Shown here: piece by piece, positions 6,688-46,385 of the stretch
Numbering within the stretch: position 1 is the stretch's first letter
Layout of the letters: each line of letters starts with the position of its first letter
DNA from: an uncultured Holophagaceae bacterium
Lineage (GTDB): Bacteria; Acidobacteriota; Holophagae; Holophagales; Holophagaceae
NCBI GenBank assembly: GCA_903840385.1
Contig: CAIMFT010000063.1
Span: 1,620-65,619, forward strand
DNA: 64,000 nucleotides
Direction: 5' to 3'
Program-made: the position numbers and the translations under genes
Notes under the pieces: model-generated
What the model saw: only the letters and a program-made list of their open reading frames with translations
Databases searched by the model: none
Told to the model about the DNA's origin: nothing

Positions 6688-6818
6688 GGGCGTGGCCTCC
6701 GGCCCGGGCTGCAGGCCGCCCACATGGTAATGGCTCCCCGCCGCCGTCCGGCGCGGAATCAGGGCCAGCGGCCTCTGGCTTTACGGAGTGTCGGAAAAGG
6801 CGGGGTGAGAGCCGGGGC

Positions 6819-33173: not shown

Positions 33174-34607
33174 TTGCCTGCCGTCCGATTCCACCCCTGC
33201 CTGCCGGCCCTCATGGGTTCCCTCCACCAGCGGAAGGGAACTGGGGAGCTGCTGCTCGAACAGAACGATGGGAACCGCCGCCTCTACTGGTCGAAGGGGG
33301 AGCTGGCCTACATCCGCAGCGATGCCGTGGGCGAGCAGTTCGGCAACTTCCTCATCCGCAGGGGCGTGCTGGACATGGCCACGCTCCGGTCGCTCCTGGA
33401 GGAAGACCAGGGTGCCCGCCTGGGGGACCGCGTGGTGCAGCTGGGCCTGATCACAGAGGAAGCCCGGGATGCCCACCTCCACGAGCTGCTGAGTTCGGTG
33501 CTCCTCCACGCACTGGAGCACCCCATCCTGCGAGGCACCTGGATTCCGGGTGATCCCGACGTGGCCAGCCTGGACTCCCTCCAGTTCCGCCTGAACCACC
33601 GCACCCTGATCTGGGGCGCCGTCCGGGATGCCAACATCGACCGGGAGCTGCAGGACATGTACCGGCGCGATCCCGAGTGGCGCTGGCGGGCGCCGTCGGG
33701 CGTGCTGGACAGCATCAGCGACCTGCCGCTCACCCCCACCCTCGCTTATGCCATCTCCCTGCTGGGGACGGAGCCCATCAGCTGCGCCACCTTCGCCGCC
33801 CTGTCGGGCCTGCCGGCCGAGGAGATCAACCGCCTGGTGGCCGCCCTCTGGGCCCTGGGGGGCTTGGTCCAGGTGCAGGGCCGTGAGCCCTCCGTGCAGG
33901 AGGAGGCGGTGCCACCGCCGGTGGAGCCTGTCAGTGGGCCACACGAGACCTACACCCCTGTGCCACCCCCACCCCCGGAGCCACCGCGCCCCCCAGCGCC
34001 ACCCTCCCGGCCGCAGCCCCCGGCCCGGCTGGAACCTGAGCCGGTCTGGCACATCGAGATTTCAGACGAGGAACCCCTGGCCTCTCCCTCTCCGGACCTG
34101 ACCCCGCTCCCCACCCCCACAGGCCTGCCCCTGGTCATGTCCACCGAGGAGGAGGGCCTCTCGGTGACCGAGCGGGCCCGGCGCCTGCTGGTCAAGGCCA
34201 AGAGCTACCTCATGCAGGACCGCACCAGCGAGGCCATCCGGGCCCTGGAGCAGGCCATCAAGCTGGATGGCGACTCCCCCTGGGCTTATGAGGTGTGGCT
34301 GCTGCTGGGCCGCCTGCGCCTGAGCAACCCCGCCTGGTCCACCCGTGCCGTCGAGGCCCTGCAGATGGCCTCCCGCCTCAACCCGCGCTCCGCCGACCCC
34401 TGGGCCCTCATGGGTGACCTGTACCACCGCAAGGGCTACCACGCCAACGCCCAGGGCTGCTTCCGCCGCGCCCTCGAGCTCGACCCCAGCGTCGCCGTCC
34501 CCGCCGGCTGGGTCCAGCAGCCCCTCCCCGGCACCCCCAACACCTCCGAAGACACCCCCGGCCTCATGGGCCGGATCAAGGGGCTGTTTGGGCGGGAGAA
34601 GGGCTAG
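33174..34607 (+). CDS. DUF4388-domain, Pro-rich linker, TPR protein
   Basis: N-terminal TG.L.L.......LYW.KGEL...S....FG.FL.RRG (DUF4388/PatA-N-like); C-terminal TPRs. Confidence 0.7.
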   Translation: MPAVRFHPCLPALMGSLHQRKGTGELLLEQNDGNRRLYWSKGELAYIRSDAVGEQFGNFLIRRGVLDMATLRSLLEEDQGARLGDRVVQLGLITEEARDAHLHELLSSVLLHALEHPILRGTWIPGDPDVASLDSLQFRLNHRTLIWGAVRDANIDRELQDMYRRDPEWRWRAPSGVLDSISDLPLTPTLAYAISLLGTEPISCATFAALSGLPAEEINRLVAALWALGGLVQVQGREPSVQEEAVPPPVEPVSGPHETYTPVPPPPPEPPRPPAPPSRPQPPARLEPEPVWHIEISDEEPLASPSPDLTPLPTPTGLPLVMSTEEEGLSVTERARRLLVKAKSYLMQDRTSEAIRALEQAIKLDGDSPWAYEVWLLLGRLRLSNPAWSTRAVEALQMASRLNPRSADPWALMGDLYHRKGYHANAQGCFRRALELDPSVAVPAGWVQQPLPGTPNTSEDTPGLMGRIKGLFGREKG

Positions 34608-35329
34608 CGCAGAATGGCCTTTGCAGCTTCAAAGTCCTCAGGGGTTCCCAGGCCAACCATCTGGTCCACGGGGTAGGCCAACACCTTCAAGCCATCCTCG
34701 ATGAGCTCATTGAACACAGGGCAGACATAAAACTCACCATTGACCCGCTTGTTCGCCTCGATCAAACGGTTCCCGTACTTGATGAAGTCTGTCCCACGCT
34801 TGAAATAATAAATACCGACCACAGCGTGGGGCGTGAATGCATCCTTGGCGCGGACCTCGGTGATGCGACGGGCATCATCCATCGCCACAAAGGACCATTT
34901 GTTCTCGCGTTTCGTGTCTGTGAAGATGGGCATTGCCCCCTCGGCATCCGCTTCCCGCATCGCTTCAAGGAACGCATCGAGACTCCACGCCACCCACTGA
35001 TCGGAGTTTGCGATAATAAGCGTGTCGGTCTGGTCGATATGATGAGCGGCAATCAATGCTGTGTTGACGGCTCCATCGGTAAGCTCGTTGATAACGATGA
35101 GTTGATAGTCGATTTGTGCATTTTGTAATAATGCATCGATCTCCGCTCTGTAATTTTCAATATGTTTTTTCTGGAATATGAAATAAAACCGCGCGTCATA
35201 ACGGCGAAAATTATCAATCACATGACCTAGGATGGGTTTGCTATTGACCAATAGCAATTGTTTGATCGTGTCGTAACCTTGATCGAAAAACCGCTTGCTC
35301 TCACCAGCACACGGAATGATGACTTGCAT
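34604..35329 (-). CDS. Nucleotidyltransferase / GT2 BcbE-like protein
   Basis: IIP.AG.SKRF...GY...K.LL, NSDQ, KWSF, VGIYYF, NGEFYV.PVFN, GLGTPED. Confidence 0.8.
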   Translation of the reverse strand: MQVIIPCAGESKRFFDQGYDTIKQLLLVNSKPILGHVIDNFRRYDARFYFIFQKKHIENYRAEIDALLQNAQIDYQLIVINELTDGAVNTALIAAHHIDQTDTLIIANSDQWVAWSLDAFLEAMREADAEGAMPIFTDTKRENKWSFVAMDDARRITEVRAKDAFTPHAVVGIYYFKRGTDFIKYGNRLIEANKRVNGEFYVCPVFNELIEDGLKVLAYPVDQMVGLGTPEDFEAAKAILR

Positions 35330-35332
35330 GGG

Positions 35333-36310
35333 TTATGCTCCTAAATGGTGCTGGATCGCCTGGTACATCACTTGGTGATAATGTTTTAAATCGACCCCGA
35401 TCAAGGCCGGGTGAATGACATGTGCCCGTCGTATCATCAGTGGTGTCTTGTTGTTGAATTTTGAATACCAATTAATTTCCGTCTCATCGATCAAGCCGCG
35501 CGGGATGTTTCCTTGATCAACCAACCCTTGAATGTGAAACCACACGTCACTGCGCATAACATAGAATTGCGCCTGATAGAATCCGGGATACGGCGTTACG
35601 ACATAGTCCTGTGGTGCAAAGATGCGTTTGATATGATCAATAATGTATGTGTTGAGTTTTGTAATGGCGGGATTTGAGTGGCGGATAGGGTGCTCGCCAC
35701 CATTGAAATATTGGGCGTCTAGCATGTACTGACGCAAAGCACCGGCATCCCACGCACCCATATTTAAAAAGAAACGTTTAAGCGGAACCAAGTCGTCGGT
35801 CCCGTTGCTGTTTGGATACTGGTTGTAATCGAAGGCTGTGAAGTCCTGATATATCCCCTGGCGAACCGAAGCGTCCTCTACAAAGTCCTCGATAAATAGG
35901 TCCGTTGTAAGGGAGTTGATGCTACTGACAGGGAAGAGCCAGAGGTTGCCAGGGTCCTCTAGGAGGTCTGCTTTCTCGATGAAGCAATCGAGGATGTGGT
36001 GGCCATAGAACAAGTCATCGTCACACTTGATGAAGTACTCATATTTACCAATGATGGCGGCCAATTTTTTCTTATATCCATGCCAACTGGTGTCATTGAC
36101 ATTGAGGGTGCGGATGGCCATCCCCTTGTAGGGCGAATTCCGAAGGTGGGCCAGGATTCGCCACTCAATCTCGGCCGTCGAGGCGGCCACCCAAATATCC
36201 AGTCGGTCTTTGTGCTTGCATTGACTGATGGCGTGGAGCGTGGCATTGAGCCCCACTAACCGCTCGGTGGTATTCACCATCCATATGAAGGCTATCTTTG
36301 GGTGCACCAT
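35333..36310 (-). CDS. Putative GT-A fold glycosyltransferase
   Basis: YEYFIKCDDDLF DxD-type motif after a Rossmann-like N-terminus; AT-rich; operonic with neighbours. Confidence 0.5.
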   Translation of the reverse strand: MVHPKIAFIWMVNTTERLVGLNATLHAISQCKHKDRLDIWVAASTAEIEWRILAHLRNSPYKGMAIRTLNVNDTSWHGYKKKLAAIIGKYEYFIKCDDDLFYGHHILDCFIEKADLLEDPGNLWLFPVSSINSLTTDLFIEDFVEDASVRQGIYQDFTAFDYNQYPNSNGTDDLVPLKRFFLNMGAWDAGALRQYMLDAQYFNGGEHPIRHSNPAITKLNTYIIDHIKRIFAPQDYVVTPYPGFYQAQFYVMRSDVWFHIQGLVDQGNIPRGLIDETEINWYSKFNNKTPLMIRRAHVIHPALIGVDLKHYHQVMYQAIQHHLGA

Positions 36311-36367
36311 TGTCTCCCTGCTTGTGATCCCTAGTAGATGGACCTATTTGCTAATCGGCGTCACTTC

Positions 36368-37768
36368 CTAAAACCAGGTGTCCTCCGGTGTCAGAATCTG
36401 CTTGAGCCCATCGACCGGTCGCATGTCCCTATGGATGGCTAGCATGTTGATGGAGCAGATCCTTGAGAAGTGATCTACCCGATTGCCTTTGAAGTTGTTC
36501 CGGTTGAACAACTGGGGCGTGTGCCACCAGAGTCGATAGCCAAGGTCGAACAGCCGCTGAATAAGCTCTGCCGAATGCTCAAACCGGCTGTTTTCGATGT
36601 ACATAATGGGGTGGCACCGGGCGATGGTACCGGCGGCTCCCGCAAGCACCTTCGACTCGTAACCCGTCACGCTCAGTTTGATGAAGTCCACCCGATCTAG
36701 GTTGAAGGTGTCGAGCCTGTCCATGGGCACCGCCTCGCCCTCTTCGACGGTATCCACGCCGATGCCGTCGAAGTCGATGGCCTGGGAATAATCCAGGACG
36801 GGGATCAGGCATTCGCCCTCGGTGTCCCCCAGGGCCATGGCGTAGGTAAAAACGTTGGTGATGCTGTTGAGCACAAGGTTGGCGCCGAGGATCTGGTGGA
36901 GGACTGTCTGAGGCTCGAATGCAACCACGATGCCATCCGGGCCCACCAAGTGGGCGAGAGGTATCGTGTGGACTCCAATGTTGGCCCCGATGTCGAGCAC
37001 AACAGCCTCTTTCTGGATGAATTGAGCCATGAAGTCCATCTCGCTCTGGCAGTACTGTCCGTACTCCTTGAGAGAGAGGCCTATCTTCGGGTCCTTGGGG
37101 GGATAGAGCATTCGCCCGTGGTTGCAATCAGCTAGGGCAGTGAAGGCCGGGAAGGCCGGTTGGGGTGGTTCTACCTCACCCGCCCCTTGTTTTTTCCTGA
37201 GAACGATCTCTATGGAGCATTCTGCGGGGGCACTCTCCAGGGCCGTCTGGTCGATGTCTCCCAGGTCATAGCGAAAGCCGGCCTCGATGCGTTCGATCTT
37301 GATGATCTCCACTCTGTTCCAAAACGGCATGAGCAGGTCGAAGACATTGACTGACTTGGGCAGCAGGGGTGCCCCACGGTAGATGGTGAAGGACCACTTG
37401 TGGTCGCTGTTGAAGCGGCTGGGCCAGTGAAGGTGCTCGTAGAGTTCCTCGTCCGGGATCACGATGACCAAGTGGCCCCCGCCGCGCACAACCCGGATCC
37501 AGTTCATCAGAGCAACGGTGGGGTCCACCATGTGCTCCAGGCTGTGGGAACTGTACAGGTAGTCATAGGTCTCATCAGGCACGCTGGCCAGGTATTGGGC
37601 ATCTCCATCTGGCAGGTCCCAGTTCCTGCAACTGTCGAAGCCCAGCAAAGCGGCATACCGGGCAAGGGGATCCCCCCCGCCGCCGACATCAAGGCCAGCG
37701 CCAACAAAATAGGGCTGACCCTCGAGGACGCGCCGTTTCATGCTGCGGGAGGTTCCGCCTTGTTTCAT
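36368..37768 (-). CDS. Double methyltransferase: class I SAM-MT fused to FkbM-family MT
   Basis: GAGLDVGGG...DAQ...YD..YSSHSLEH (domain 1) and VLDIGANIGVH...AFEPQ...DFIKL (domain 2); start MKQGG at 37768. Confidence 0.82.
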   Translation of the reverse strand: MKQGGTSRSMKRRVLEGQPYFVGAGLDVGGGGDPLARYAALLGFDSCRNWDLPDGDAQYLASVPDETYDYLYSSHSLEHMVDPTVALMNWIRVVRGGGHLVIVIPDEELYEHLHWPSRFNSDHKWSFTIYRGAPLLPKSVNVFDLLMPFWNRVEIIKIERIEAGFRYDLGDIDQTALESAPAECSIEIVLRKKQGAGEVEPPQPAFPAFTALADCNHGRMLYPPKDPKIGLSLKEYGQYCQSEMDFMAQFIQKEAVVLDIGANIGVHTIPLAHLVGPDGIVVAFEPQTVLHQILGANLVLNSITNVFTYAMALGDTEGECLIPVLDYSQAIDFDGIGVDTVEEGEAVPMDRLDTFNLDRVDFIKLSVTGYESKVLAGAAGTIARCHPIMYIENSRFEHSAELIQRLFDLGYRLWWHTPQLFNRNNFKGNRVDHFSRICSINMLAIHRDMRPVDGLKQILTPEDTWF

Positions 37769-37900
37769 GGTTGTATTCCTCGTCCAGGTTCTTTTGGGCA
37801 CATGTTTCGCGGGGGCTTCATAACCATGTCTTATCGTGTGCCCTGGGTCGGGCATGTGTTTTGGCACAGGCCCCCTGGTGGCTCCTCCAAAAAAAATAAA

Positions 37901-37928
37901 TAAAGGTTTCTGGCAGGGGATCCGAAAG
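37901..37928 (+). promoter_or_regulatory. Putative sigma28 (FliA) promoter of flagellin
   Basis: TAAA-N16-TCCGAAAG versus consensus TAAA-N15-GCCGATAA, preceded by an A-tract; a similar motif occurs before fliS-2. Confidence 0.55.
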
Positions 37929-37960
37929 AGGAAAGGTCGGGGGTTCCCCCCACACAACCA

Positions 37961-37999
37961 GGCAGCACGGATGCTGCCAACCTACATCACGGAGGATGT
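37961..37999 (+). promoter_or_regulatory. Two CsrA/RsmA-type hairpins in flagellin 5' UTR
   Basis: GGCAGC-ACGGAU-GCUGCC and ACAUC-ACGGAG-GAUGU, both with ANGGAN loops; the second sequesters the Shine-Dalgarno. Confidence 0.7.
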
Positions 38000-38000
38000 T

Positions 38001-38603
38001 ATGGTTACCATTCTTTCCAACATCAACGCCCTGGCCGCCAGCCGCCAGTTGGGCATCACGAAGATCGGTCTGAACACGACCATCACGCGGCTCACCACCG
38101 GTCGGCGGGTCAATACCGCCTCGGACGATGCCGACAGCCTCACCAAGGGCAATACTGCCCAGGCGGCGGCCCGTAAGGCTGGGGCTGAGGTCTATGCGGC
38201 GCAGGCCGCTTACTTCACCGCCCTGAATACCGACGGTGCGAACCAGGAAGCAACGCAGGCAGCCTACAAGATGGCCGAGATGGAAGGTGGCGGCAACGAT
38301 ACCTCCGCTGAATACACTGCGCTGGGCGTCATTGCGGGTGGCGCGACTTCGACCCTGGCCCTGGCCGTCATCGAAACCGATCAGGCCACCAACGCCAAAA
38401 CCATGACCGACAACTTGTCCAAAGCCAACAAGAGCGGCATCGAGGCAGAAACCCAGCAGGGCATCGCTGATGCTTACCTGGGTGCTGACATGGGCGCCGA
38501 GATGGCGAACCTCAGCAAGTTCCAGATCATGATGCAGGCGGGCACCAGTGCGCTGAACAACGCGAACCAGTCCACCCAGACGATCCTCGGCCTCTTCCGG
38601 TAA
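38001..38603 (+). CDS. fliC: Flagellin, unusually short (200 aa) and diverged
   Basis: N-terminal I.SNINAL.A.RQL......L...ITRL.TGRRVN.ASDDA; C-terminal ADMGAEMANLSKFQI..QAG.SAL..ANQ..Q.IL.LFR; no Pro/Trp/Cys/His; followed by flaG-fliD-fliS. Confidence 0.88.
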   Translation: MVTILSNINALAASRQLGITKIGLNTTITRLTTGRRVNTASDDADSLTKGNTAQAAARKAGAEVYAAQAAYFTALNTDGANQEATQAAYKMAEMEGGGNDTSAEYTALGVIAGGATSTLALAVIETDQATNAKTMTDNLSKANKSGIEAETQQGIADAYLGADMGAEMANLSKFQIMMQAGTSALNNANQSTQTILGLFR

Positions 38604-38621
38604 GTAGGTAGTCTCTGACTT

Positions 38622-38654
38622 CTGGAGGGGGCGGATCCCATCTGCCCCCTCCAG
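38622..38654 (+). terminator. Stem-loop after flagellin (terminator/attenuator or stability element)
   Basis: ctggagggggcgga-tccca-tctgccccctccag, 14-bp stem with one G-U; only a weak U-tract (ccgttt). Confidence 0.55.
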
Positions 38655-38682
38655 CCGTTTGAAACCGGAGAGGAGGTCCATC

Positions 38683-39027
38683 ATGGCCAGTCAAATCACA
38701 GCTATCCCCGGCACGCCCGTCCTGGCGACGGGACCAGCGCCAGTAGCCCCAGCGCGTACCGTGGCGACCAGGGCGTCCGCAACTAAAGCCAGTGCTTCCG
38801 GTAGCCCGGAGGCCGCTGTGGCCCACGTAAACCAGCACCTAGAGCAGGGCCAGACGGACCTAAAACTGCAGGTGGACGCCGGCTCTGGCCGCACCGTCTT
38901 CCGGGTGGTCCAGCAAGGCACTGGCGAGGTGGTGTTGCAAGTGCCTTCCGAGGAAGTCCTGGGGATGTCACGCCGGGTACGGGAAATCGAAGGCCAGACG
39001 GGTGGCCTGGTGGACAAGAAAGGCTAG
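38683..39027 (+). CDS. flaG: Flagellar protein FlaG
   Basis: AV..VN..L......L...VD..SGR..F.VV...TGEV..Q.PSEE.L; located between fliC and fliD; GAGGAGG RBS. Confidence 0.85.
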   Translation: MASQITAIPGTPVLATGPAPVAPARTVATRASATKASASGSPEAAVAHVNQHLEQGQTDLKLQVDAGSGRTVFRVVQQGTGEVVLQVPSEEVLGMSRRVREIEGQTGGLVDKKG

Positions 39028-39060
39028 GCCATCCGGTAAGCAGGCGTCTCGAGGTGAGTC

Positions 39061-40794
39061 ATGGCTACGACATCGGGCACTTCGATCAGTGGTGTCGCTA
39101 CGGGTGTGGACACCACATCCCTGATCAATGCCATCATTGCGCAGAAGGGTACAAACCTGACGCGGTTGCAGGCCCGCAGGGACCTCAATGACAAGAAAAC
39201 CGCCGCCCTGACGGCTCTGAGGACCAGCCTGACTGCCCTAAATGTTAGCCTGGCGGTCATTCAGGACAAGTTCAACAGCCGCACGGTGAGCAGCACCGAC
39301 GTCAACAACACCAACGTCACGGCCACGGCCTCCGGTGCCCTGGCGGACACCTACGACATTTCGGTCAAGACGGTGGCCACCAAAGGGCGGATCTCAGCGA
39401 CCTTGGACTCAAAGGGCTGGACCACCAACCTGGCTGTGGCCAGTCCCACGGACTCAGTCAACTCAGGGATCTTCACCGCTGGAACCCCAGCCAGCTTCGC
39501 CATCCAGGGAACCGACGGCGTGATCAAGACGATCACCCTGGACGCCAGCTCCAACACCTTGAATGGCCTGCGCGATAAGATCAACGCTTCCGGGGCTGGG
39601 GTCACGGCCTCGGTTGTGAACATGGGCAAGGGCGACAAGCCCTATCAGCTGGTACTCACTGCCAAGGCAACCGGAACCGGCGTCACCCAGGGGGTGGTCA
39701 CGCTGGTTGATATCACCGACCCTGTGCCAACGGACCCGGCCACCGGCCTTCCAATTGCCACAAACAGCCTGGGAATTGCGGCGGGTACCGTAGATCTGGT
39801 GGCCAAGGCCCTTACGGGAGGGCTCAGGTCCTCGGTGGCGGGAACAGCCACAGACGCGGACTTTACCCTCAATGGCATTGAGCTCACTCGCTCGACCAAC
39901 GTGGTCAAGGATGCGGCAGAGGGTATGACCTTCACCCTCAAGCAGGGGGGGCAGACGGGTACAACGACCCTGACGGTGGGCCTGGATAAGGCCGGCGCCA
40001 CGGCCGCCATGGCGGACTTCATCAGCAAGTACAACCAGCTGCTGAAGGACTATAAGGCGGCGTCCACCTCCACCAAGAATGCGGATGGTTCCGTCAACCA
40101 AGCCGCCCTGGCGGGTGACGCCGCCACGATCGCGTTGATGAGCACCCTCAAGTCCAGCCTGGCGGGTGCGTCTGCCGGCTTGCCCGGCACCGCCACCTAC
40201 CAATCCCTGGCCGGCGTGGGCATCACCAACATGGCAGATGGCAGTCTGTACCTAAACACCAACGCGTTTCAGACAGCAATGGCCAATGACCTTGGGTCTG
40301 TTCAAAAATTATTCAGCTTTTCGGGAGTCTCCACTAACCAGGGTGTCACCTTCAAAAGCGCGGGGCCCAAAACGGCCACGGGCACCGTGGATGTCACTAT
40401 CACCAAGGATGAATCCGGGACCCTTTGGGGAACCCTGATGCGGAACAACGTGGCCAGTGCGCCCATCCAGGTCACCAATGGGGTCCTGATTGGTACTGGG
40501 GACCTGGAAGGGTTGAACCTGACTGTGACTGATACTGGCAGTGGGACCTTGACCCTTAGCCGCGGTGCGGGCCAAGCGGGGTCGGACTTGCTCACCAAGT
40601 TCACCGGTCTGGGCGGGGGCATCACCACTGGGTTGAACACTGTTTTTGCTCAGAACAAGAACCTGGCCACTCAGATCATCCAGGCCCAGACAATGCTGGA
40701 CCGGGAAAAGGAAGTCTTGAAACAAAAGTTCGCCAAGATGGAAGCTGCCGTGGGTGCCATGAAAGCATCTGCCGGTTCGCTAACCGGGGCGTAA
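39061..40794 (+). CDS. fliD: Flagellar filament cap protein FliD
   Basis: SG..TGVDT.SLI.AII, DA.FTLNGI...RS.N.V.D, C-terminal L.Q.FAKMEA....M. Confidence 0.92.
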   Translation: MATTSGTSISGVATGVDTTSLINAIIAQKGTNLTRLQARRDLNDKKTAALTALRTSLTALNVSLAVIQDKFNSRTVSSTDVNNTNVTATASGALADTYDISVKTVATKGRISATLDSKGWTTNLAVASPTDSVNSGIFTAGTPASFAIQGTDGVIKTITLDASSNTLNGLRDKINASGAGVTASVVNMGKGDKPYQLVLTAKATGTGVTQGVVTLVDITDPVPTDPATGLPIATNSLGIAAGTVDLVAKALTGGLRSSVAGTATDADFTLNGIELTRSTNVVKDAAEGMTFTLKQGGQTGTTTLTVGLDKAGATAAMADFISKYNQLLKDYKAASTSTKNADGSVNQAALAGDAATIALMSTLKSSLAGASAGLPGTATYQSLAGVGITNMADGSLYLNTNAFQTAMANDLGSVQKLFSFSGVSTNQGVTFKSAGPKTATGTVDVTITKDESGTLWGTLMRNNVASAPIQVTNGVLIGTGDLEGLNLTVTDTGSGTLTLSRGAGQAGSDLLTKFTGLGGGITTGLNTVFAQNKNLATQIIQAQTMLDREKEVLKQKFAKMEAAVGAMKASAGSLTGA

Positions 40795-40852
40795 GTATTC
40801 TTGGATTCATGGGCAGGTGGAACTTGCCGAAACAATAGGGGGGGGGTTACCC

Positions 40853-41278
40853 ATGAACGCCTATGCCCGATCAGCTGACACTTACCTCCGCCAGCGCATC
40901 CTGGGGGCCGGTCCGGAACAACAGGCGGCCCTGATCATGGAGGCAGGCCAACTGCATTTAGGGAAAGCCATCCAGGCCTTGCGTAGTAATGACCTGCCCG
41001 CAGCTACCCGTAGCTTTCTTCGGGTCTCAGAGGTTCTCTTGGAGGCGAACATTCGGCTGAACCATGAGGCTGGAGGTGAGGTCGTCGAGAACCTAAACAA
41101 ATTGTATGAGTGGTGGACCAAGGAAATCATGGTCGCCAGCGCGACCAAGGATACGGTCCGGCTAGCAGCAGTGGTGCACGGCATGGGTGAGATCCGCCAG
41201 GCCTGGGAACAGCTGCACGAGCAGACCGTGTTGTCTGCCAAGGTGTCCACCCTTCAGTTCAGGGAACAGGTCGTATGA
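40853..41278 (+). CDS. fliS: Flagellin export chaperone FliS
   Basis: AY...Y....I..A.PEQ...L.M....L, LNHEAGGE..ENL..LY, L.EIR.AWEQ. Confidence 0.88.
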   Translation: MNAYARSADTYLRQRILGAGPEQQAALIMEAGQLHLGKAIQALRSNDLPAATRSFLRVSEVLLEANIRLNHEAGGEVVENLNKLYEWWTKEIMVASATKDTVRLAAVVHGMGEIRQAWEQLHEQTVLSAKVSTLQFREQVV

Positions 41279-41574
41279 GTGATGCCCAACTCGGCACAAC
41301 CATCCTGCAGATGGAAGCTTGGCTGGCAGATGCGACCTGGGAGCCCGACCCCGATGCACTGATGCGCTGGGATGCAGAATTTAAGGAAGCCCTGGCCTGT
41401 GCGGAAAAGGGACCGGGGTGGGTAGGGTTGATCGCCCGGGCGCATTCGGCAGGCCGGGAGTTGGAAAACAGGATTGCCGCAGTGTCCGCAGAGCGGGACC
41501 AAGTGAGGGCAGCGCTTGAGGGCCATGCACGGGGGAATCGGGCCCTCAAAGGCTATGGGGCCATTTCCCGCTAA
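41275..41574 (+). CDS. FliT-like small helical protein
   Basis: 99 aa, overlaps the fliS stop, coiled-coil C-terminus ending N.ALKGY; assignment mainly positional. Confidence 0.5.
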   Translation: MSDAQLGTTILQMEAWLADATWEPDPDALMRWDAEFKEALACAEKGPGWVGLIARAHSAGRELENRIAAVSAERDQVRAALEGHARGNRALKGYGAISR

Positions 41575-41588
41575 AACAGGAGGCTGGC

Positions 41589-43373
41589 TTAGGGCCCTTG
41601 TGTCAGGTCTGCGACCACCTTCCGGATCACCGATTTCCAATCCCCGTAGGACGGTTGCCGATAGAGGTGCAGGGAGGGGTACCAGGGGCTGTCCTCTCGG
41701 CCCAGAAGCCAGCGAAAATCTGGCTGGAAGGTGAGGAGCAGCAGGGTCGGAATCCCCAAGGCCCCGGCGAGATGGGCCACGGAGGTATCCACCGTGATCA
41801 CCAAGTCCATGCCGCTCAGCGCGTAGGCAGTATCCGAAAAATCCAGCAACAGAGGGGCTAACGACACCAACTCGGGCAGGGGAGGCAGCTCCCGCGCGCC
41901 CAACTGAAAACTGAACCATGTCACCCCCGATAGGGCCGCCAGCGGCCCCAAGGCGCTTGGGGGCAAGGAGCGTTCGAGATCCCGTTTGTGTCCCGGGCTG
42001 CCCGCCCATACCAAGCCAATTCGGGTACTTTCCTTGGCCGAAGCCAGGGCTTCCTGGATCGCCTGACGATGGGGGACCACTGCTGGTACATCCAGGTAGG
42101 GGATCTCAGCCGGAATGGATGCCAACTCCGTCCGAAGAAGAAAGGGGAGGGAAAGCAGGGAGGCCTGGAGGTCGTGCTGGGGCAGGGAGGCACCCCTGGG
42201 GATCACCTCGTCCGCACCGCCGCAAGTAGCAGCCACCGCCAACAAGGAGGGTTGGACCTCCAGAAGTACCCGCCCTCCCAGGGCCTTCACCAATGGGAGG
42301 TACCGGACAAACATCAAGGTATCTCCGAATCCCTGCTCACACCAAAGCAGCAGGGTTTTCCGCGCAAAGGCTTCACCGCGCCAAGCCGGTTGAGCAAAGG
42401 CCCGCTGGGGCTTGATCTCATTGGGGACCCGCAACCGTGCTTCGTATCCTTCCCACCCGCGGGCCATGTCGCCGAAAAGCAAATCGACAAAGCTCTGCTC
42501 GTATTCGGCAAGAGCCGAGGTGGGATTCAGCCCATGGAACCGTTCGCTCTCCATCCGGTACTCAGCCCAGCGTCCAAGTGCAGTGTAGATGCCCCCCACG
42601 CAGGAGTGAACGAGGTAACTGTCGGGCTCATCACGGATGACCCTGGCTATTTCCTGGTCGGCTAGGTCCACCTCCAGCCTCCGGGTCAGGCACACAATCA
42701 GTAGTAACCGAGCATTGATGTCACGCGGGTGCTCAAGCAGCAGCTTCCGGAAGGCCCCTTCCGCCTCGATTAGGTGGCCCTGGGCCATCTGGATGGAGCC
42801 GAGGGTGGCCTGCGCCATGAGGTTGCGTGGATTGGTTAGCAGTGACCGCTCAGAGGCTTCCTTGGCCTCTTTGAACCTCTGAACCTCGAGCAGTGCCAAT
42901 CCGAAAATCGCCCAAAGCTCTGCGTGCCGGAGTTCCAACCTAGCTGGGTTCCCAACGGCGACGCCAGTTCGGTCGTGTTCACCAGCGACCTTCCAGACAC
43001 CGTCCAGGTCCCCCCTTCTCAGGAGGCACTCCATCAAGCCCAACCGCCCATCGAGTCGGTGAGGCTCTGACTCTAGAACGGCTCCAAAAGGGTGTTCTGC
43101 CTCCCGCAGACGGCCTTGACGCATGAGGGCGAAGCCGAGGTGGAGGCTGGCCGATGAATGCCCAGGACTCAAGCGGAGCGTGGTCTCGCAAGCGGCCCGC
43201 GCATCCTCGAAGCGACCAAGCGCCAACAGGTGGCCAGCGTAGTCCGACCAGGCATCGGCGTGTTGGGGCTCTTTATCCAGGAACATCTGGTAGGCCTTCG
43301 CAGCCCCAGGGTGGTCGCCAGAACGGTCTAAGCCCCGCGCCCTTCTGAGCAACCGCATGTGGTCTGGATTCAT
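41589..43373 (-). CDS. TPR-repeat plus GT-B (GT9-like) glycosyltransferase, paralog 1
   Basis: N-terminal TPRs; LLWCEQGFGDTLMF.RY, IGLVWAG, DLVITVDTSVAHLAGALG, WLL.R.DSPWYPS..LYRQ; start MNPDH. Confidence 0.82.
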   Translation of the reverse strand: MNPDHMRLLRRARGLDRSGDHPGAAKAYQMFLDKEPQHADAWSDYAGHLLALGRFEDARAACETTLRLSPGHSSASLHLGFALMRQGRLREAEHPFGAVLESEPHRLDGRLGLMECLLRRGDLDGVWKVAGEHDRTGVAVGNPARLELRHAELWAIFGLALLEVQRFKEAKEASERSLLTNPRNLMAQATLGSIQMAQGHLIEAEGAFRKLLLEHPRDINARLLLIVCLTRRLEVDLADQEIARVIRDEPDSYLVHSCVGGIYTALGRWAEYRMESERFHGLNPTSALAEYEQSFVDLLFGDMARGWEGYEARLRVPNEIKPQRAFAQPAWRGEAFARKTLLLWCEQGFGDTLMFVRYLPLVKALGGRVLLEVQPSLLAVAATCGGADEVIPRGASLPQHDLQASLLSLPFLLRTELASIPAEIPYLDVPAVVPHRQAIQEALASAKESTRIGLVWAGSPGHKRDLERSLPPSALGPLAALSGVTWFSFQLGARELPPLPELVSLAPLLLDFSDTAYALSGMDLVITVDTSVAHLAGALGIPTLLLLTFQPDFRWLLGREDSPWYPSLHLYRQPSYGDWKSVIRKVVADLTQGP

Positions 43374-43383
43374 CGCCAGGTCC

Positions 43384-45171
43384 TCAGGAGCTACTAGAGA
43401 GGTCTGCAAGCACCTCCCGGATGACGGAATCCCAGTCCCCATAACTCGGTTGCCGGTAGAGGCGGAGGCTCGGATACCAGGGACTATCCTCTCGCTCCAG
43501 CATCCATCGGTAATCAGGCTGATATGTGAGCAGTAGAAGCGTGGGAACACCCAGGGCACCCGCAAGGTGGGCCACGGCCGTGTCCACCGTGATCAAGAGA
43601 TCCAGCCCGCTCAGGGCATAGGCTGTGTCTGAGAAGTTCGCTAGAAAAGGAGCCATGGACGTCAGGCCTGGCAGGGGCGGGACCTCCTCTCTCCTGAGCT
43701 GAAGGCTGTACCAGGACACCCCTTGCAGGTCACCCAGCGGTGCCAGGGATGCTGCGGACAGCGACCGCTCCGCGTCTCTGGAATGGAGAGGGCTGCCAGC
43801 CCACACCAAACCGATGCGGACGTTTTCACCGGCCAGGGACAGGGTCGCCAGCAGTTCCTGCCTGTGAGGCACCTCCGCGGGGACCTGCAGGTAGGGGATC
43901 TCGGCAGGGATGGTGGCCAGCTCCGTCCGGAATATCCACGGCAGGGACTGGAGGGACACCTGAAGGTCAAATGCCTGCAAGCCGGTGTTCTGGGGGATCA
44001 CCACATCGGCGCCTTCACAGGTGGCCGCCAGCTCCGTCAATGCCGACTGGGCCTCCACGATGACCTGGCCCCCCAGGGCTTTCACCATGGGGAGGTAGCG
44101 AAGAAACATCAGGGTGTCGCCAAAGCCTTGCTCGGCCCAGAGCAGGAGCGTCTTTCCCCGGAAGGGCTCACCAGTCCAGGTAGGTTGCGAAAAAGACCGA
44201 TAAGCGGGCCTAAGGTCCTTGGGGATCCTGAACCTAGCCTCGTGCCGTTCCCAGCCCTGGCGGAAGTCGCCAAAGAGAAGGTCCACGAAGCTCTGTTCGT
44301 AGTCGGGATGGGGTGAGGCTGGATCCAGCGCACGAAACCGGGCGATTTCCGCGGCGAATTCAGGCCAGCGCCCATGGGCGTAGTGAGTCCCCTTCACTCC
44401 CCTGTGAACAGTGAGGTTTGTAGGCGCCTCCTGGATAGCCTTAGCGGCTTCCTGGTCGGCCAAACGGAAATTCCCACGCCTGGCCAGGCAGTCAATCAGT
44501 TGCAGGCGCAACCTCATGTTGTGCGCATGTTCCTCGACCAACTTTCGAAGCATTCCCTCAGCTTCTTCTGCGCGCTCCTGGGCCATTCGGATGCTCGCGA
44601 GGCTGGAGTGCGCACTCAGGTTTCGGCTGTTGTACCGGAGGGCGGTGGCACAGGCCGCTTCCGCCGCAGTGGTGTTTTGCTCTTCGAGCAGTCCCATGCT
44701 GAGGATGGCCCAGAGTTCTGCATGGTAGGCCAGCAGGGCCGGAGATCTGCCAGGCATGCTGGAAAGGGGCCCCGCTGAATCTAGCGCCCGCTGGGCACCC
44801 TTCAGGTCCCGTTTCTGCAATAAACACTCAGCCAGGAACAGATGCGCATCCAGGCGCTTTCCATCCGACCTCAGGGCGGATCGGAAATGGCTTTCGGCCT
44901 CCTCTGTCTGATCACATCGCATCAGGGCCCTCCCCAGGTTGACCCGGGCGGCGAGGTGGTTTGGTTCGTTCAAGAGCGCAGCACGGGCGGCTCTTTGGGC
45001 CTCTTGGAGGTCCCCGAGGTTCAGCATCTTTCCGGCGAGGCTGGACCATGCGTCCGCATGCCTGGGCTCGCGGGCCAGGAACGCACGATAGGCCACAGCG
45101 GCTTCCTGAGGCTTCTGGGCCCGGTCCAGGGCCTGGGCCTTCTTCAACAGCTTTATGTGGTCTGGATGCAT
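43384..45171 (-). CDS. TPR-repeat plus GT-B (GT9-like) glycosyltransferase, paralog 2
   Basis: Same architecture (LLWAEQGFGDTLMF, DLLITVDTAVAHLAGALG); start MHPDH at 45171. The upstream extension in the track is antisense to fliS-2. Confidence 0.82.
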   Translation of the reverse strand: MHPDHIKLLKKAQALDRAQKPQEAAVAYRAFLAREPRHADAWSSLAGKMLNLGDLQEAQRAARAALLNEPNHLAARVNLGRALMRCDQTEEAESHFRSALRSDGKRLDAHLFLAECLLQKRDLKGAQRALDSAGPLSSMPGRSPALLAYHAELWAILSMGLLEEQNTTAAEAACATALRYNSRNLSAHSSLASIRMAQERAEEAEGMLRKLVEEHAHNMRLRLQLIDCLARRGNFRLADQEAAKAIQEAPTNLTVHRGVKGTHYAHGRWPEFAAEIARFRALDPASPHPDYEQSFVDLLFGDFRQGWERHEARFRIPKDLRPAYRSFSQPTWTGEPFRGKTLLLWAEQGFGDTLMFLRYLPMVKALGGQVIVEAQSALTELAATCEGADVVIPQNTGLQAFDLQVSLQSLPWIFRTELATIPAEIPYLQVPAEVPHRQELLATLSLAGENVRIGLVWAGSPLHSRDAERSLSAASLAPLGDLQGVSWYSLQLRREEVPPLPGLTSMAPFLANFSDTAYALSGLDLLITVDTAVAHLAGALGVPTLLLLTYQPDYRWMLEREDSPWYPSLRLYRQPSYGDWDSVIREVLADLSSSS

Positions 45172-45267
45172 GGGTGGTTCTTGCCCCCTGCTGTCTCTTC
45201 GATCCACTGGGGGGCGCTCTTGAATTGGGGTCCCCGAAGGGCCCGCGTGAATTTGCAGGGTCGAAAT

Positions 45268-45295
45268 TACATCAGCCCGTGGCTTCTGCCGAAAG
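45268..45295 (+). promoter_or_regulatory. Putative sigma28 promoter of second fliS-like gene
   Basis: TACA-N16-GCCGAAAG, same spacing as the flagellin promoter. Confidence 0.45.
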
Positions 45296-45363
45296 GAGAG
45301 CTGACGGGGTTGACCTTCTTTACTCTCTGCCCCTCCTGCCACCTCTTGATCACGGACCTGCCC

Positions 45364-45762
45364 ATGTCTCCCGAGCTGGCCACCTCGCTTCCCACTCAAC
45401 CTGAAGCCCCTGCCATCCCCGAGCACATGGTGGTGCTGCTGCTGGAGGCGGGGCAGCGGTTTGTGGTGAAGCTGCAGGAAGTGGTCGCTCTGGATGACCC
45501 GCGGCCCCGGGCGCACTTCAGCAGGAAGGTCCTCGCCATCCTCGAAGAGCTGGACCGCCGCCTGAACCACGAGCAGGGCGGGGAGCTGGTGGACAACCTC
45601 ACTTGGATGCACGCCTGGTGGCGCAAGGAGGTGCTGCAGGCCAGTGAGACGGGCGACCTGGAGAGACTGGGCCGGGTGCATGCGCAGATGGGCGAGATCC
45701 GCTACGCGTGGGAGCAGGTGCTGTTCCGCGGCACCGGCATGACGAGCAATCCCTCGTACTAG
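45364..45762 (+). CDS. Second FliS-like chaperone
   Basis: RLNHEQGGELVDNL...WW and GEIRYAWEQ align with FliS-1 (RLNHEAGGEVVENL...WW, GEIRQAWEQ). Confidence 0.75.
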   Translation: MSPELATSLPTQPEAPAIPEHMVVLLLEAGQRFVVKLQEVVALDDPRPRAHFSRKVLAILEELDRRLNHEQGGELVDNLTWMHAWWRKEVLQASETGDLERLGRVHAQMGEIRYAWEQVLFRGTGMTSNPSY

Positions 45763-46385
45763 GCCGTGCCGTAGAGGCGGTCCCCGGCGTCGCCGAGGCC
45801 GGGCAGGATGTAGCCCTTCTCGTTGAGCTGCCGGTCCACCGCACCCACCACGATCGTCAGGTCTGGATGGTCGGCCTGCAGGCGGGCGATGCCCTCGGGC
45901 GCGGCGAGGAGAGACACCAGCGTGAGGTTCACAGCTCCCGCGGCCTTGAGTTGCCGCACGGCCTCGGAGGCACTGCCGCCGGTGGCCAGCATGGGATCGA
46001 GGATGAACACTGGGCGCGCCTCGAGGAGGGGCGGGAAGTTGCGGTAGTAGGGCACGGGTACCAGCGAGTCATGGTCGCGGTAGAGACCGAGGTGGCCGAC
46101 CTTGGCCGTGGGCATCAGCTGCAGGAAGGCGGGCAGGAAGCCGAGGCCTGCGCGGAGGACGGGCACCAGCACCGGATCGAGCGCACCGAGGCGCCGCGTC
46201 TCGGTGCGCTCGAGAGGCGTTTCCACCACGGCGGACACAGTGGGAAGGCTGCGCGTGGCCTCTGCGGCGAGCAGCAGTCCAGTCTCTTCGATGAGGGCTC
46301 GAAAGAGGCTGCCAGCGGTTTTGCGGTCGCGGATGAGGGAGAGCTTGTGGTGGACCAGCGGGTGGTCGAGCACGTGGACGGACAT
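45759..46385 (-). CDS. upp: Uracil phosphoribosyltransferase
   Basis: HPLV.HKL..IRD, VPVLRAG, GH.GLYRD, LDPMLATGGS, LN.KGYI.PGLGDAGDR.YGT. Confidence 0.97.
   Translation of the reverse strand: MSVHVLDHPLVHHKLSLIRDRKTAGSLFRALIEETGLLLAAEATRSLPTVSAVVETPLERTETRRLGALDPVLVPVLRAGLGFLPAFLQLMPTAKVGHLGLYRDHDSLVPVPYYRNFPPLLEARPVFILDPMLATGGSASEAVRQLKAAGAVNLTLVSLLAAPEGIARLQADHPDLTIVVGAVDRQLNEKGYILPGLGDAGDRLYGTA

What the first reader, a model, noticed from the sequence alone, without database searches (positions are those of the whole stretch)
38001..38603. A 200-aa flagellin: D0 intact, D1 apparently halved, no outer domains
Seen: both D0 termini are recognisable, but only about 110 residues lie between DDADSL and ADMGAEM. 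By eye the ND1a helix is present yet diverged (ATQAAYKMAEM in place of ..ILQRMRELAVQ). ND1b stops after SAEYTAL, and the beta-hairpin and the start of CD1 are missing. Known: natural D0-D1-only flagellins are typically about 270-300 aa, and D1 contacts govern supercoiling. The gene keeps a strong RBS, promoter, CsrA sites, full-size FliD, FlaG, two FliS and five transferases, which argues against decay. Inference: a minimal, thinner, heavily modified filament, possibly with altered mechanics or a non-swimming role such as adhesion or phage evasion. This is the best candidate for an undescribed system here.
Basis: partly seen in the sequence, partly recalled or inferred. Interest (0 to 1): 0.82.

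Follow-up and report, generated by a model that had tools for sequence, protein, structure and literature searches.

The report
Minimal 200-residue flagellin of Holophagaceae
This is a real, conserved and transcribed flagellin gene of a freshwater Holophagaceae (Acidobacteriota) bacterium that has lost the outer part of the normally invariant D1 core domain, which makes it about 60 residues shorter than any flagellin whose filament structure has been solved.

Summary
Window 38001-38603 (+) encodes a 200-aa protein with both flagellin termini. AlphaFold2 and profile alignment show a full ND1a helix, a 10-residue ND1b stub, no FNG motif, no beta-hairpin, and a near-complete CD1.

It is not an assembly error or a decaying gene:
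- More than 120 protein clusters of 195-224 aa exist, and 31 species-level genomes carry intact copies. These include cultured Geothrix limicola (211 aa).
- The operon is conserved: flagellin, FlaG, FliD, FliS.
- A sigma-28-type promoter and a two-site CsrA-type leader are conserved, and the leader hairpin shows compensatory changes.
- An orthologue is the most abundant transcript of its locus in four peat or wetland metatranscriptomes.

Other Geothrix and Holophagaceae genomes carry a canonical 264-266-aa flagellin, with FNG motif and hairpin, in the same chromosomal slot. The 200-aa gene is therefore the positional orthologue of a normal filament flagellin, at the short end of a natural D1 deletion series (276 to 200 aa).

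The most likely reading is that it is the main filament subunit, probably glycosylated by two FlmG-like TPR-glycosyltransferases. A non-swimming role has no support. Filament assembly, motility and the absence of another flagellin elsewhere in the genome were not tested. This is a new variant of a known kind, of moderate to high structural interest.

The parts
37901..37929 (+). Sigma-28 (FliA)-type promoter motif, TAAAGGTT-N13-CCGAAAGA
   Evidence: It is the only match in 64 kb against 0.01 expected. TAAAG and CCGAAA are conserved upstream of the flagellin in 29 of 31 related loci and in the long-flagellin orthologue L058. L059 has the related TCAAGG ... CCGAAA. Function is inferred from the motif.
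37937..37952 (+). GC hairpin near the 5' end of the leader (GGGGG-TT-CCCCC)
   Evidence: It is conserved with compensatory changes in the alignment of 27 leaders (pairs in columns 11-22). Fragment ends in the orthologue lie about 60-65 nt upstream of the ATG.
37961..37978 (+). Leader hairpin GGCAGC-ACGGAT-GCTGCC, which shows a GGA in its loop (CsrA-type site 1)
   Evidence: It has 7 pairs, 4 of them with changes on both sides that keep the pairing. The loop is invariant.
37986..38000 (+). ATCACGGAGGATGTT: Shine-Dalgarno sequence overlapping a second GGA site (CsrA-type site 2)
   Evidence: It is nearly invariant in 27 leaders.
38001..38603 (+). 200-aa flagellin. ND0 is roughly residues 1-39, ND1a 40-96, the ND1b stub 103-112, the tip loop 113-116, CD1 117-160 and CD0 161-200.
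38622..38654 (+). Perfect 11-bp inverted repeat (stem-loop) just after the stop codon
   Evidence: The MFE is -36.3 kcal/mol with z -3.1. There is no T-run, so the simple terminator scan did not call it.
38683..39027 (+). FlaG
   Evidence: Pfam FlaG, E 7e-12.
39061..40794 (+). FliD filament cap, 577 aa
   Evidence: Pfam FliD_N and FliD_C.
40817..41278 (+). FliS export chaperone
   Evidence: Pfam FliS, E 3e-19.
41275..41574 (+). Conserved 99-aa ORF after fliS, with no family match
   Evidence: A 96-99-aa gene holds the same position in L025, L055, L058 and L059. Pfam and NCBIfam give no match.
41589..43565 (-). TPR plus GT9-like (GT-B) protein with FlmG-like architecture; candidate flagellin glycosyltransferase
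   Evidence: Pfam gives TPR repeats at aa 70-250 and Glyco_transf_9 at aa 567-608. The FlmG architecture is described in PMC7591256.
43384..45681 (-). Second TPR plus GT9-like protein. The true start is probably near 45290, because the 5' part of this ORF overlaps fliS2.
45364..45762 (+). FliS paralogue, 132 aa
   Evidence: It is 46% identical to FliS over 102 aa, E 2e-20.
36368..37768 (-). Dual methyltransferase (Methyltransf_23 plus FkbM), divergent from the flagellin
35333..36310 (-). 325-aa ORF of the island with no domain match
34604..35329 (-). Sugar-1-phosphate nucleotidyltransferase (RmlA/GlmU-like)

Best explanation
The gene encodes the main flagellar filament subunit of a freshwater Holophagaceae bacterium.

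Shown:
- It is a flagellin-family protein with intact D0 termini, a full-length ND1a helix and a full-length CD1 helix.
- Of the rest of D1, only a 10-residue ND1b stub and a 4-residue tip loop remain. The distal part of ND1b, the FNG motif and the beta-hairpin are gone.
- It is conserved at 199-227 aa in at least 31 species.
- It heads a FlaG-FliD-FliS operon.
- It has a conserved sigma-28-type promoter and a conserved leader with two GGA sites.
- It occupies the chromosomal slot that holds a canonical 264-266-aa flagellin in sister genomes.
- An orthologue is transcribed in nature.

Inferred:
- FliA drives transcription late in flagellar assembly.
- A CsrA-like protein gates translation.
- FliS holds CD0 for export through the flagellar type III system.
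- FliD caps polymerisation into an 11-protofilament tube. The inner tube (D0) is normal. The outer tube is built from a two-helix D1 with a small cap helix, so the filament should be thinner.
- The Ser/Thr-rich, hypervariable tip (residues 101-130) is the exposed surface. The two FlmG-like TPR-glycosyltransferases of the island probably glycosylate it there.
- The strong divergence of ND1a and CD1 from the canonical sequence is read as repacking of the subunit interfaces after ND1b and the hairpin were lost.
For: Family and structure:
- Both Pfam termini score above threshold.
- Two AF2 models were made. The window protein has helices 40-96, 103-112 and 117-199, with D1 pLDDT 92-95. The 211-aa G. 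limicola protein has helices 40-96, 103-118, 128-171 and 175-210. Neither has a strand.
- HHalign to canonical flagellins gives 99.8%, with gaps at distal ND1b, FNG and the hairpin.

Conservation:
- 320 homologue clusters were found, and the best 120 are all 195-224 aa.
- All 31 copies in genomes are intact.
- dN/dS is 0.40 overall and 0.17 in CD0.
- All length changes and the highest entropy fall at the tip.

Context:
- FlaG, FliD and FliS follow the gene.
- G. limicola and a 5.7-Mb contig show the same synteny.
- Some genomes carry tandem copies, all of them short.

Regulation:
- The sigma-28 motif is unique in the window.
- Promoter and leader are conserved.
- The hairpin has compensatory pairs.

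Orthology:
- The 264- and 266-aa flagellins of L058 and L059 lie between the same RNase III and UPRTase/IGPS/enolase/ParAB flanks, with the same leader.
- They keep TKFNG and the hairpin.

Expression:
- An orthologue occurs in 20 metatranscriptomes.
- It is the deepest transcript of an 8-kb locus in 4 of 4 runs.
- One identical 173-nt RNA contig lies on the window gene.

Background from papers:
- Mesoterricola, of the Holophagaceae, are motile rods (PMC13064192).
- Holophaga and Geothrix MAGs carry more than 30 flagellar genes (PMC11748539).
Against: - No filament, motility or proteomic evidence exists for any organism with this flagellin type. The species description of G. limicola was not available, so I could not confirm that it is flagellated.
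- ND1b and the beta-hairpin take part in the 5-start, 11-start and 16-start interfaces of solved filaments (PMC5643327). Whether a lattice without them can assemble and supercoil is unknown.
- I could not scan a whole genome for a further, canonical flagellin.
- The window holds no basal-body or motor genes (ORFs between 16 and 32 kb were not scanned).
- dN/dS in D1 (0.4-0.6) is only moderately low.
- RNA evidence for the window's own gene is a single short contig, and contig depth is a poor measure of expression.
- No CsrA or FliW gene was seen in the window or the loci.
Confidence: 0.75

Rival explanations
1. It is an accessory or minor flagellin. A canonical D0/D1 flagellin encoded elsewhere in the genome builds most of the filament, and the short protein is a minor, segment-specific or condition-specific subunit, as in multi-flagellin bacteria.
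For: Whole genomes could not be searched. Two Holophaga MAGs (L007, L015) carry a divergent 261-264-aa flagellin-family gene with a complete D1 directly upstream of the short one. Several genomes have 2-3 flagellin copies.
Against: - That longer paralogue is rare, with 4 clusters in 5.8 billion proteins against 320 for the short family. It also lacks the conserved N-terminal GxRxN/DDAAG motif.
- All other extra copies are short.
- The short gene sits in the filament operon slot that holds the canonical flagellin in sister genomes.
- No contig length is shared between the lists for the short and long families.
- The short gene is the top transcript of its locus.
Confidence: 0.13
2. It is a filament or secreted protein with a role other than swimming. 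It might act as an adhesin, as a scaffold for extracellular electron transfer, or as a regulatory flagellin that titrates a translational regulator. Caulobacter FljJ is an example of a regulatory flagellin. On this reading the reduced D1 gives straight or non-switching filaments.
For: - The parts of D1 tied to inter-protofilament contacts and L/R switching are missing (PMC5643327).
- Flagellated but apparently non-motile acidobacterial isolates have been described (PMC13362970), although those belong to other lineages.
- Holophagaceae are iron reducers.
Against: - The gene has the promoter, leader, chaperone and cap of a normal filament gene.
- It is a positional orthologue of canonical flagellins.
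- Related Holophagaceae isolates are reported as motile rods.
- No adhesin or cytochrome domain is attached.
- In most genomes a single gene of this type is present at the locus, which leaves no structural partner for a purely regulatory paralogue.
Confidence: 0.1
3. It is an artefact or a decaying gene, produced by an internal deletion from misassembly or by a pseudogene under neutral drift.
For: None beyond the unusual length.
Against: - An identical sequence appears in independent DNA assemblies.
- There are 31 intact orthologues and more than 120 clusters of the same length.
- dN/dS is below 1 in every segment.
- The regulatory leader is conserved with compensatory changes.
- The gene is transcribed.
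Confidence: 0.01

Closest known systems
D0/D1-only flagellins of Firmicutes (Bacillus subtilis Hag, 304 aa; B. cereus flagellin, described as the smallest natural flagellin)
   Same: They have no outer D2/D3 domains, so the filament core is the whole filament. The conserved D0 termini are shared.
   Different: They keep the complete D1, with three helices plus the beta-hairpin (PMC5643327). They are 60-100 residues longer. The window protein keeps only a 10-residue ND1b stub and has no hairpin. It scores 45 bits or less against NCBIfam flagellin models whose cutoffs are 311 bits or more.
Canonical 264-276-aa flagellins of other Geothrix/Holophagaceae genomes (for example P0364 and P0323)
   Same: They share the chromosomal slot, operon, promoter and leader and the family-specific termini (RLTTGKRIN..., NLTKFQIL.Q.G.SAL).
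   Different: They keep the TKFNG motif, a full ND1b and the beta-hairpin. They are 33-41% identical to the window protein. ND1a and CD1 of the short form have lost canonical motifs such as RNANDGIS.
Caulobacter crescentus flagellins with the glycosyltransferase FlmG
   Same: They are small (about 273 aa) flagellins without outer domains. A cytoplasmic enzyme with N-terminal TPR repeats and a C-terminal GT-B domain glycosylates them on Ser/Thr (PMC7591256). The window island encodes two proteins with that architecture.
   Different: Caulobacter flagellins have a complete D1. No pseudaminic or legionaminic acid synthesis genes were recognised in the island. The nucleotidyltransferase is RmlA/GlmU-like, so the sugar is probably different. 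Homology to FlmG itself was not tested.
Engineered D2/D3-deleted flagellins (for example CBLB502) and laboratory D1 deletion or swap mutants
   Same: They are flagellins reduced to their conserved parts.
   Different: The engineered forms keep all of D1. In P. aeruginosa, five of six swaps of single D0/D1 helices or of the hairpin for the Salmonella equivalent abolished filaments (PMC10256154). Here nature has removed the hairpin and most of ND1b and kept the gene conserved.

Membership tests
Bacterial flagellin (FliC/Hag; Pfam Flagellin_N + Flagellin_C) | N-terminal conserved region (ND0 plus ND1a) above the Pfam gathering score | tested here: met
   Flagellin_N scores 34.1 bits against a cutoff of 26.6, but only profile positions 1-91 of 139 are matched.
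Bacterial flagellin (FliC/Hag; Pfam Flagellin_N + Flagellin_C) | C-terminal conserved region (CD1 plus CD0) above the gathering score | tested here: met
   Flagellin_C scores 27.8 bits against a cutoff of 23, matching profile positions 48-85 of 86. HHalign aligns CD1 as well.
Bacterial flagellin (FliC/Hag; Pfam Flagellin_N + Flagellin_C) | Complete D1 domain: three helices (ND1a, ND1b, CD1) plus a beta-hairpin (PMC5643327) | tested here: not met
   ND1b is cut to 10 residues, there is no FNG motif and there is no strand.
Bacterial flagellin (FliC/Hag; Pfam Flagellin_N + Flagellin_C) | Encoded with the filament cap FliD and the flagellin chaperone FliS | tested here: met
   FlaG, FliD and FliS lie directly downstream. 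The arrangement is conserved in related genomes.
Bacterial flagellin (FliC/Hag; Pfam Flagellin_N + Flagellin_C) | Polymerises into the flagellar filament | not testable with these tools
   This needs EM or mass spectrometry of filaments.
NCBIfam curated flagellin families (equivalog and subfamily models) | Whole-protein score above the family cutoff | tested here: not met
   The best score is 45.3 bits (PRK12802, cutoff 332). All 20 hits fall far below their cutoffs.
FlgL (hook-filament junction protein 3), considered because JGI labels some members 'flagellin-like hook-associated protein FlgL' | Match to FlgL models and a position next to flgK | tested here: not met
   No FlgL model appears among the NCBIfam hits. 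The neighbours are FlaG, FliD and FliS, not FlgK. The JGI label appears on only 4 of the 120 listed clusters, and many others are labelled flagellin.
hag-type CsrA-controlled flagellin leader | Two GGA sites, one in a hairpin loop and one overlapping the Shine-Dalgarno sequence | tested here: met
   The sites lie at 37961-37978 and 37986-38000. Both are conserved, and the hairpin has compensatory pairs.
hag-type CsrA-controlled flagellin leader | CsrA and FliW genes present in the genome | tested here: inconclusive
   A simple pattern search found no CsrA in the window or the loci. The rest of the genome could not be searched.
FlmG-type flagellin O-glycosyltransferase | N-terminal TPR domain plus C-terminal GT-B glycosyltransferase domain, encoded next to flagellin genes | tested here: met
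   Two such proteins lie at 41589-43565 and 43384-45681. Their Glyco_transf_9 hits (22.4 and 22.5 bits) are only just above the cutoff of 22. The architecture is described in PMC7591256.
FlmG-type flagellin O-glycosyltransferase | Sequence homology to FlmG and transfer of a nonulosonic acid to flagellin | not tested
   No FlmG sequence was at hand. No pse/leg biosynthesis genes were recognised in the island.

The most novel reading that the evidence does not exclude
The Holophagaceae filament built from this 200-aa subunit has a new outer-tube architecture. With ND1b and the beta-hairpin gone, the 5-, 11- and 16-start D1 contacts are rebuilt from ND1a and CD1 alone. O-glycans added by the TPR-glycosyltransferases might partly replace them. 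The result would be the thinnest known flagellar filament. It might have a changed lattice or a different, or absent, polymorphic L/R switch. The 276-to-200-aa orthologue series would then be a natural dissection of what D1 needs for supercoiling.
Probability: 0.2. Interest if true: 0.8.

Novelty: new variant of a known kind. Interest (0 to 1): 0.6.

Why it matters
The D0/D1 core is treated as the invariant, minimal unit of the bacterial flagellar filament. One paper gives it as about 263 residues. All solved filaments contain ND1a, ND1b, CD1 and the beta-hairpin, and ND1b and the hairpin take part in the contacts used to explain supercoiling and switching.

A conserved, expressed flagellin without them shows that the real minimum is smaller. 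Canonical orthologues sit at the same locus in sister species, and graded intermediates exist at 256, 243, 227 and 211 aa. Together these offer a natural experiment on which D1 elements are needed for assembly, rigidity and polymorphic switching. A cultured carrier (Geothrix limicola Red804, 211 aa) makes this directly testable by cryo-EM.

There are two practical points:
- Length filters and equivalog models miss these proteins. NCBI names several of them 'hypothetical protein'.
- A minimal self-assembling flagellin could be useful as a scaffold.

Tried and rejected
- **Foldseek against the PDB.** The best hits are flagellin cores (5wk6, 9hpz, 8cvi and others), but none reaches E <= 0.001. 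The monomer model has low-confidence, freely oriented D0 helices, so I used this only as consistency.
- **Rfam on the leader and gene.** No match.
- **Sigma-70 promoter and intrinsic terminator scan.** Nothing found. The promoter is of the sigma-28 type, and the 3' stem-loop has no T-run.
- **Pattern search for CsrA in the window and loci.** Nothing found.
- **Species description of Geothrix limicola (IJSEM 2023).** It was not held, so I could not confirm motility or flagellation for that strain.
- **Literature search for short, smallest or minimal flagellins.** These found only B. subtilis, B. cereus and Arcobacter flagellins, described as small or short flagellins with D0 and D1. Nothing near 200 aa turned up.
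- **FlgL identity.** Rejected (and synteny).
- **Assembly deletion.** Rejected.
- **The 261-264-aa divergent paralogue of L007 and L015 as the 'real' flagellin of the family.** Rejected because it is confined to about 4 clusters.
- **Not possible here.** I could not enumerate all flagellin-family genes of one complete genome, model a multimer or lattice, or obtain a full length distribution of all Flagellin_N+C proteins. Only the best 150 representatives were seen.
Full report
**1. The observation**

Window 38001-38603 (+) is an ORF of 200 codons that starts at an ATG 4 nt after GGAGGA. Pfam finds Flagellin_N at aa 4-94. That covers only the first 91 of 139 profile positions. Pfam also finds Flagellin_C at aa 161-198, the last 38 of 86 positions. 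Both score above the gathering threshold. NCBIfam flagellin models match only at the two ends, and no score exceeds 45 bits against cutoffs of 311 bits or more. The protein is 20.6 kDa and acidic. It is 19.5% Ala and 12.5% Thr and has no Cys, His, Pro or Trp.

AlphaFold2 with a 65-sequence alignment gives three helical elements after the low-confidence N-terminal D0:
- residues 40-96
- residues 103-112
- a continuous helix 117-199

The model has no beta strand, and pLDDT is 92-95 over residues 51-150.

A profile-profile alignment with 24 ordinary 270-290-aa flagellins (probability 99.8%) puts the missing columns in five places:
- the ND1a/ND1b turn (about 10 residues)
- the distal part of ND1b
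- the FNG motif
- the beta-hairpin
- the variable loop

By register, S117-T-L-A-L121 and I124 fit the canonical 'iD.Ai..v' start of CD1, and E150 fits the conserved 'eN'. CD1 is therefore essentially full length at 44 residues.

**2. The surroundings**

The gene lies in a low-GC island (0.56-0.64, against 0.69-0.73 elsewhere) that spans about 34.6-45.8 kb.
- Upstream, on the minus strand, are an RmlA/GlmU-like nucleotidyltransferase, a 325-aa ORF with no domain match, and a dual methyltransferase.
- Downstream are FlaG, a 577-aa FliD, FliS and a conserved 99-aa ORF.
- After those come two minus-strand proteins with N-terminal TPR repeats and a C-terminal GT9-like (GT-B) region.
- A second FliS paralogue lies at 45364-45762.

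The TPR plus GT-B layout is that of FlmG, the Caulobacter flagellin O-glycosyltransferase (PMC7591256). All other ORFs I scanned are housekeeping genes, and none is a basal-body gene. ORFs between 16 and 32 kb were not scanned.

**3. Not an artefact, and not alone**

The same DNA occurs in many lake and freshwater metagenome runs. One independent 1828-bp contig is identical across 37640-39467.

The protein has 320 homologue clusters. The best 120 are all 195-224 aa, mostly 199-201 aa, and 64-85% identical. Where named, they come from Geothrix, Holophaga or Holophagaceae.

A scan of one genome per species found 31 full-length copies of 199-227 aa. All are intact. They include cultured Geothrix limicola Red804 (211 aa, WP_285573894.1). 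G. limicola and a 5.7-Mb contig show the same order: flagellin, FlaG, FliD, FliS, then a 97-99-aa gene (in the 5.7-Mb contig a TPR gene lies between FliD and FliS). TPR-glycosyltransferase genes lie nearby. The 5.7-Mb contig also has the same chromosomal flanks: UPRTase, IGPS, enolase, ParAB, ACC and Mur ligase on one side, and RNase III on the other (RNase III seen on the related contig L057). Some genomes have two or three tandem copies, all short.

Nei-Gojobori dN/dS is 0.40 overall, 0.17 in CD0 and 0.4-0.6 in D1. These values are probably overestimates, because GC3 bias compresses dS.

Entropy and Ser/Thr content peak at residues 101-130. Every insertion in family members lies after residue 111 or 113, which is the topological site where other flagellins insert D2/D3. 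AF2 of the G. limicola protein gives the same fold, with a 16-residue ND1b.

**4. Regulation**

TAAAGGTT-N13-CCGAAAGA (37901-37929) resembles the sigma-28 consensus. That consensus is cited from general knowledge. The motif is the only such match in 64 kb, against 0.01 expected.

In 29 of 31 related loci the following are all conserved:
- the promoter
- a 5' GC hairpin
- a hairpin GGCAGC-ACGGAT-GCTGCC
- the block ATCACGGAGGATGTTATG

In the GGA-loop hairpin, 4 of 7 pairs show changes on both sides that keep the pairing, and the loop is invariant. One GGA in a hairpin loop and one over the SD is, from my knowledge of the literature, the layout of the CsrA-controlled B. subtilis hag leader. No CsrA gene was found in the sequence at hand, and no Rfam family matches. 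A strong stem-loop follows the stop codon.

**5. Expression**

A 173-nt contig from a small lake metatranscriptome matches the window gene exactly. It is the only RNA hit in 5.1 kb.

The orthologue of a fen Holophagaceae MAG (L030) occurs in 20 peat and wetland metatranscriptomes. In four of four runs its 5' half has the greatest contig depth of the 8-kb locus. Fragment ends lie 60-65 nt upstream of the ATG, where the promoter predicts the transcript start. Contig depth is a rough measure.

**6. The key comparison**

A search with the nearest longer relative (P0134, 256 aa) found a sister family of 251-276-aa flagellins. These too are named Holophaga, Geothrix or Holophagaceae.

Two of them (264 and 266 aa) lie in exactly the same slot as the window gene. 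Their neighbours run in this order:
- RNase III, a TPR protein and TPR-glycosyltransferases
- the flagellin, then FlaG, FliD, FliS and a 96-99-aa ORF
- UPRTase, IGPS (its counterpart in L058 has no Pfam hit on record), enolase, DivIC, ParA, ParB and ACC

They have the same leader, and L058 has the same promoter motif (L059 has the related TCAAGG ... CCGAAA). They keep the TKFNG motif, a full ND1b and the hairpin.

The 200-aa gene is therefore the positional orthologue of a canonical filament flagellin. The family holds a graded series at one locus (276, 264, 256, 243, 227, 211, 200 aa), with all length change at the D1 tip. The short forms have also lost canonical ND1a motifs such as RNANDGIS. 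This fits repacking after ND1b and the hairpin were lost.

No contig length is shared between the lists for the short and long families. That is what one gene per slot would predict.

**7. How it most likely works**

The most likely reading is that this is the main filament subunit. It would be made late under FliA, gated by a CsrA-like regulator, chaperoned by FliS and assembled under FliD. The filament would have a normal D0 inner tube and a slimmer D1 outer tube. The exposed Ser/Thr-rich tip is probably glycosylated.

In solved filaments, ND1b and the hairpin contribute to the 5-start, 11-start and 16-start interfaces (PMC5643327). Those contacts must be rebuilt or dispensed with here. That is the interesting, untested part.

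As a lead only: by my recollection of the Hag sequence, the invariant E104 at the start of the stub corresponds to Hag E115. Mutation of E115 to Gly gives straight L-type filaments (one search lists E115G). I did not verify that alignment with tools.

**8. Rivals**

A canonical flagellin elsewhere in the genome cannot be excluded, because no tool could scan a whole genome. A divergent 261-264-aa paralogue with a complete D1 lies next to the short gene in two Holophaga MAGs. It is confined to about 4 clusters and has a degenerate N-terminus.

A non-swimming or regulatory role has no positive evidence. Artefact and decay are excluded.

**9. What is known**

- One paper gives the D0/D1 core as '263 or a bit more residues' (PMC11532411).
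- B. cereus flagellin has been called the smallest, and B. subtilis flagellin one of the shortest.
- The 'minimal filament' is described as D0 plus D1 (PMC10256154).
- No PDB flagellin is shorter than 265 aa.
- In a 1.84-billion-protein representative library, only 7 representatives match the family profile at E <= 1e-30.
- A few unrelated singletons of 220-232 aa also match end to end.
- The text searches found no paper on flagellins of about 200 aa, or on Holophagaceae flagellins.
- Mesoterricola, of the Holophagaceae, are motile rods.
- G. fermentans is non-motile and lacks most flagellar genes. This fits its absence from the scan.

**10. Verdict**

This is a new variant of a known kind: a naturally minimised flagellin core. 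It is conserved across a bacterial family and a cultured carrier is available for testing. It is not a new system. Interest is 0.6.

Noticed in passing
L015:8975-9769 and L007:7938-8723: Two Holophaga MAGs carry a divergent 261-264-aa flagellin-family gene directly upstream of the short flagellin. It has a complete D1 (FNG motif and hairpin region), but its N-terminus lacks the GxRxN/DDAAG motif. Only about 4 clusters of it exist in 5.8 billion proteins. Its role is unknown.
   Followed up: partly
window 41275-41574 (+): A 99-aa ORF overlaps the fliS stop codon. A 96-99-aa gene holds the same position in G. limicola, L055, L058 and L059. Pfam and NCBIfam give no match. It is a candidate unrecognised flagellar chaperone or regulator (a FliT-like position).
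   Followed up: partly
window 45364-45762 (+) and 43384-45681 (-): A second FliS paralogue (132 aa, 46% identical to FliS) lies antisense to the 5' end of the longest minus-strand ORF. The TPR-glycosyltransferase therefore probably starts near 45290, and mechanical ORF calling would hide fliS2.
   Followed up: partly
window 34001-46000: GC content drops to 0.56-0.64 across the flagellin and glycosylation island, against 0.69-0.73 in the flanks. Gene content between the conserved flanks (RNase III and UPRTase) differs between genomes in its transferases. The region looks like a variable surface-modification island at a fixed site.
   Followed up: partly
window 35333-36310 (-): A 325-aa ORF inside the island matches no Pfam or NCBIfam family. 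It may be an unrecognised sugar-modifying enzyme or transferase.
   Followed up: no
P0157, P0162, P0227, P0269, P0242: Other short flagellins (201-232 aa) with canonical termini (GLRVNSAKDDAAGLA ... QILQQAG) match the profile end to end. They are singletons on short metagenome contigs. They may be independent D1 reductions in other lineages, or assembly artefacts. P0242 seems to lack CD1 instead.
   Followed up: no
window 46614-48065 (+); also L059 14751-16223: Indole-3-glycerol-phosphate synthase carries a C-terminal tail of about 150 aa that matches histone H1-like HC2. The fusion is also present in a related genome.
   Followed up: no
window 4828-6723 (-): A fumarase/aspartase-type lyase (Lyase_1 plus FumaraseC_C) has an N-terminal cyclic-nucleotide-binding domain.
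   Followed up: no
L021 (JBAXHE010000242.1, 2436 bp): A contig binned as 'Betaproteobacteria bacterium' carries a Holophagaceae-type 227-aa flagellin with the family's promoter and leader. It is probably a mis-binned contig.
   Followed up: no
L002 8678-10600; L010; L011; L024: Some Holophagaceae genomes carry two or three copies of the short flagellin within about 1-2 kb. In L002 and L010 the copies are separated by only about 50-60 nt. In L024 and L011 at least one further copy has its own copy of the leader.
   Followed up: partly
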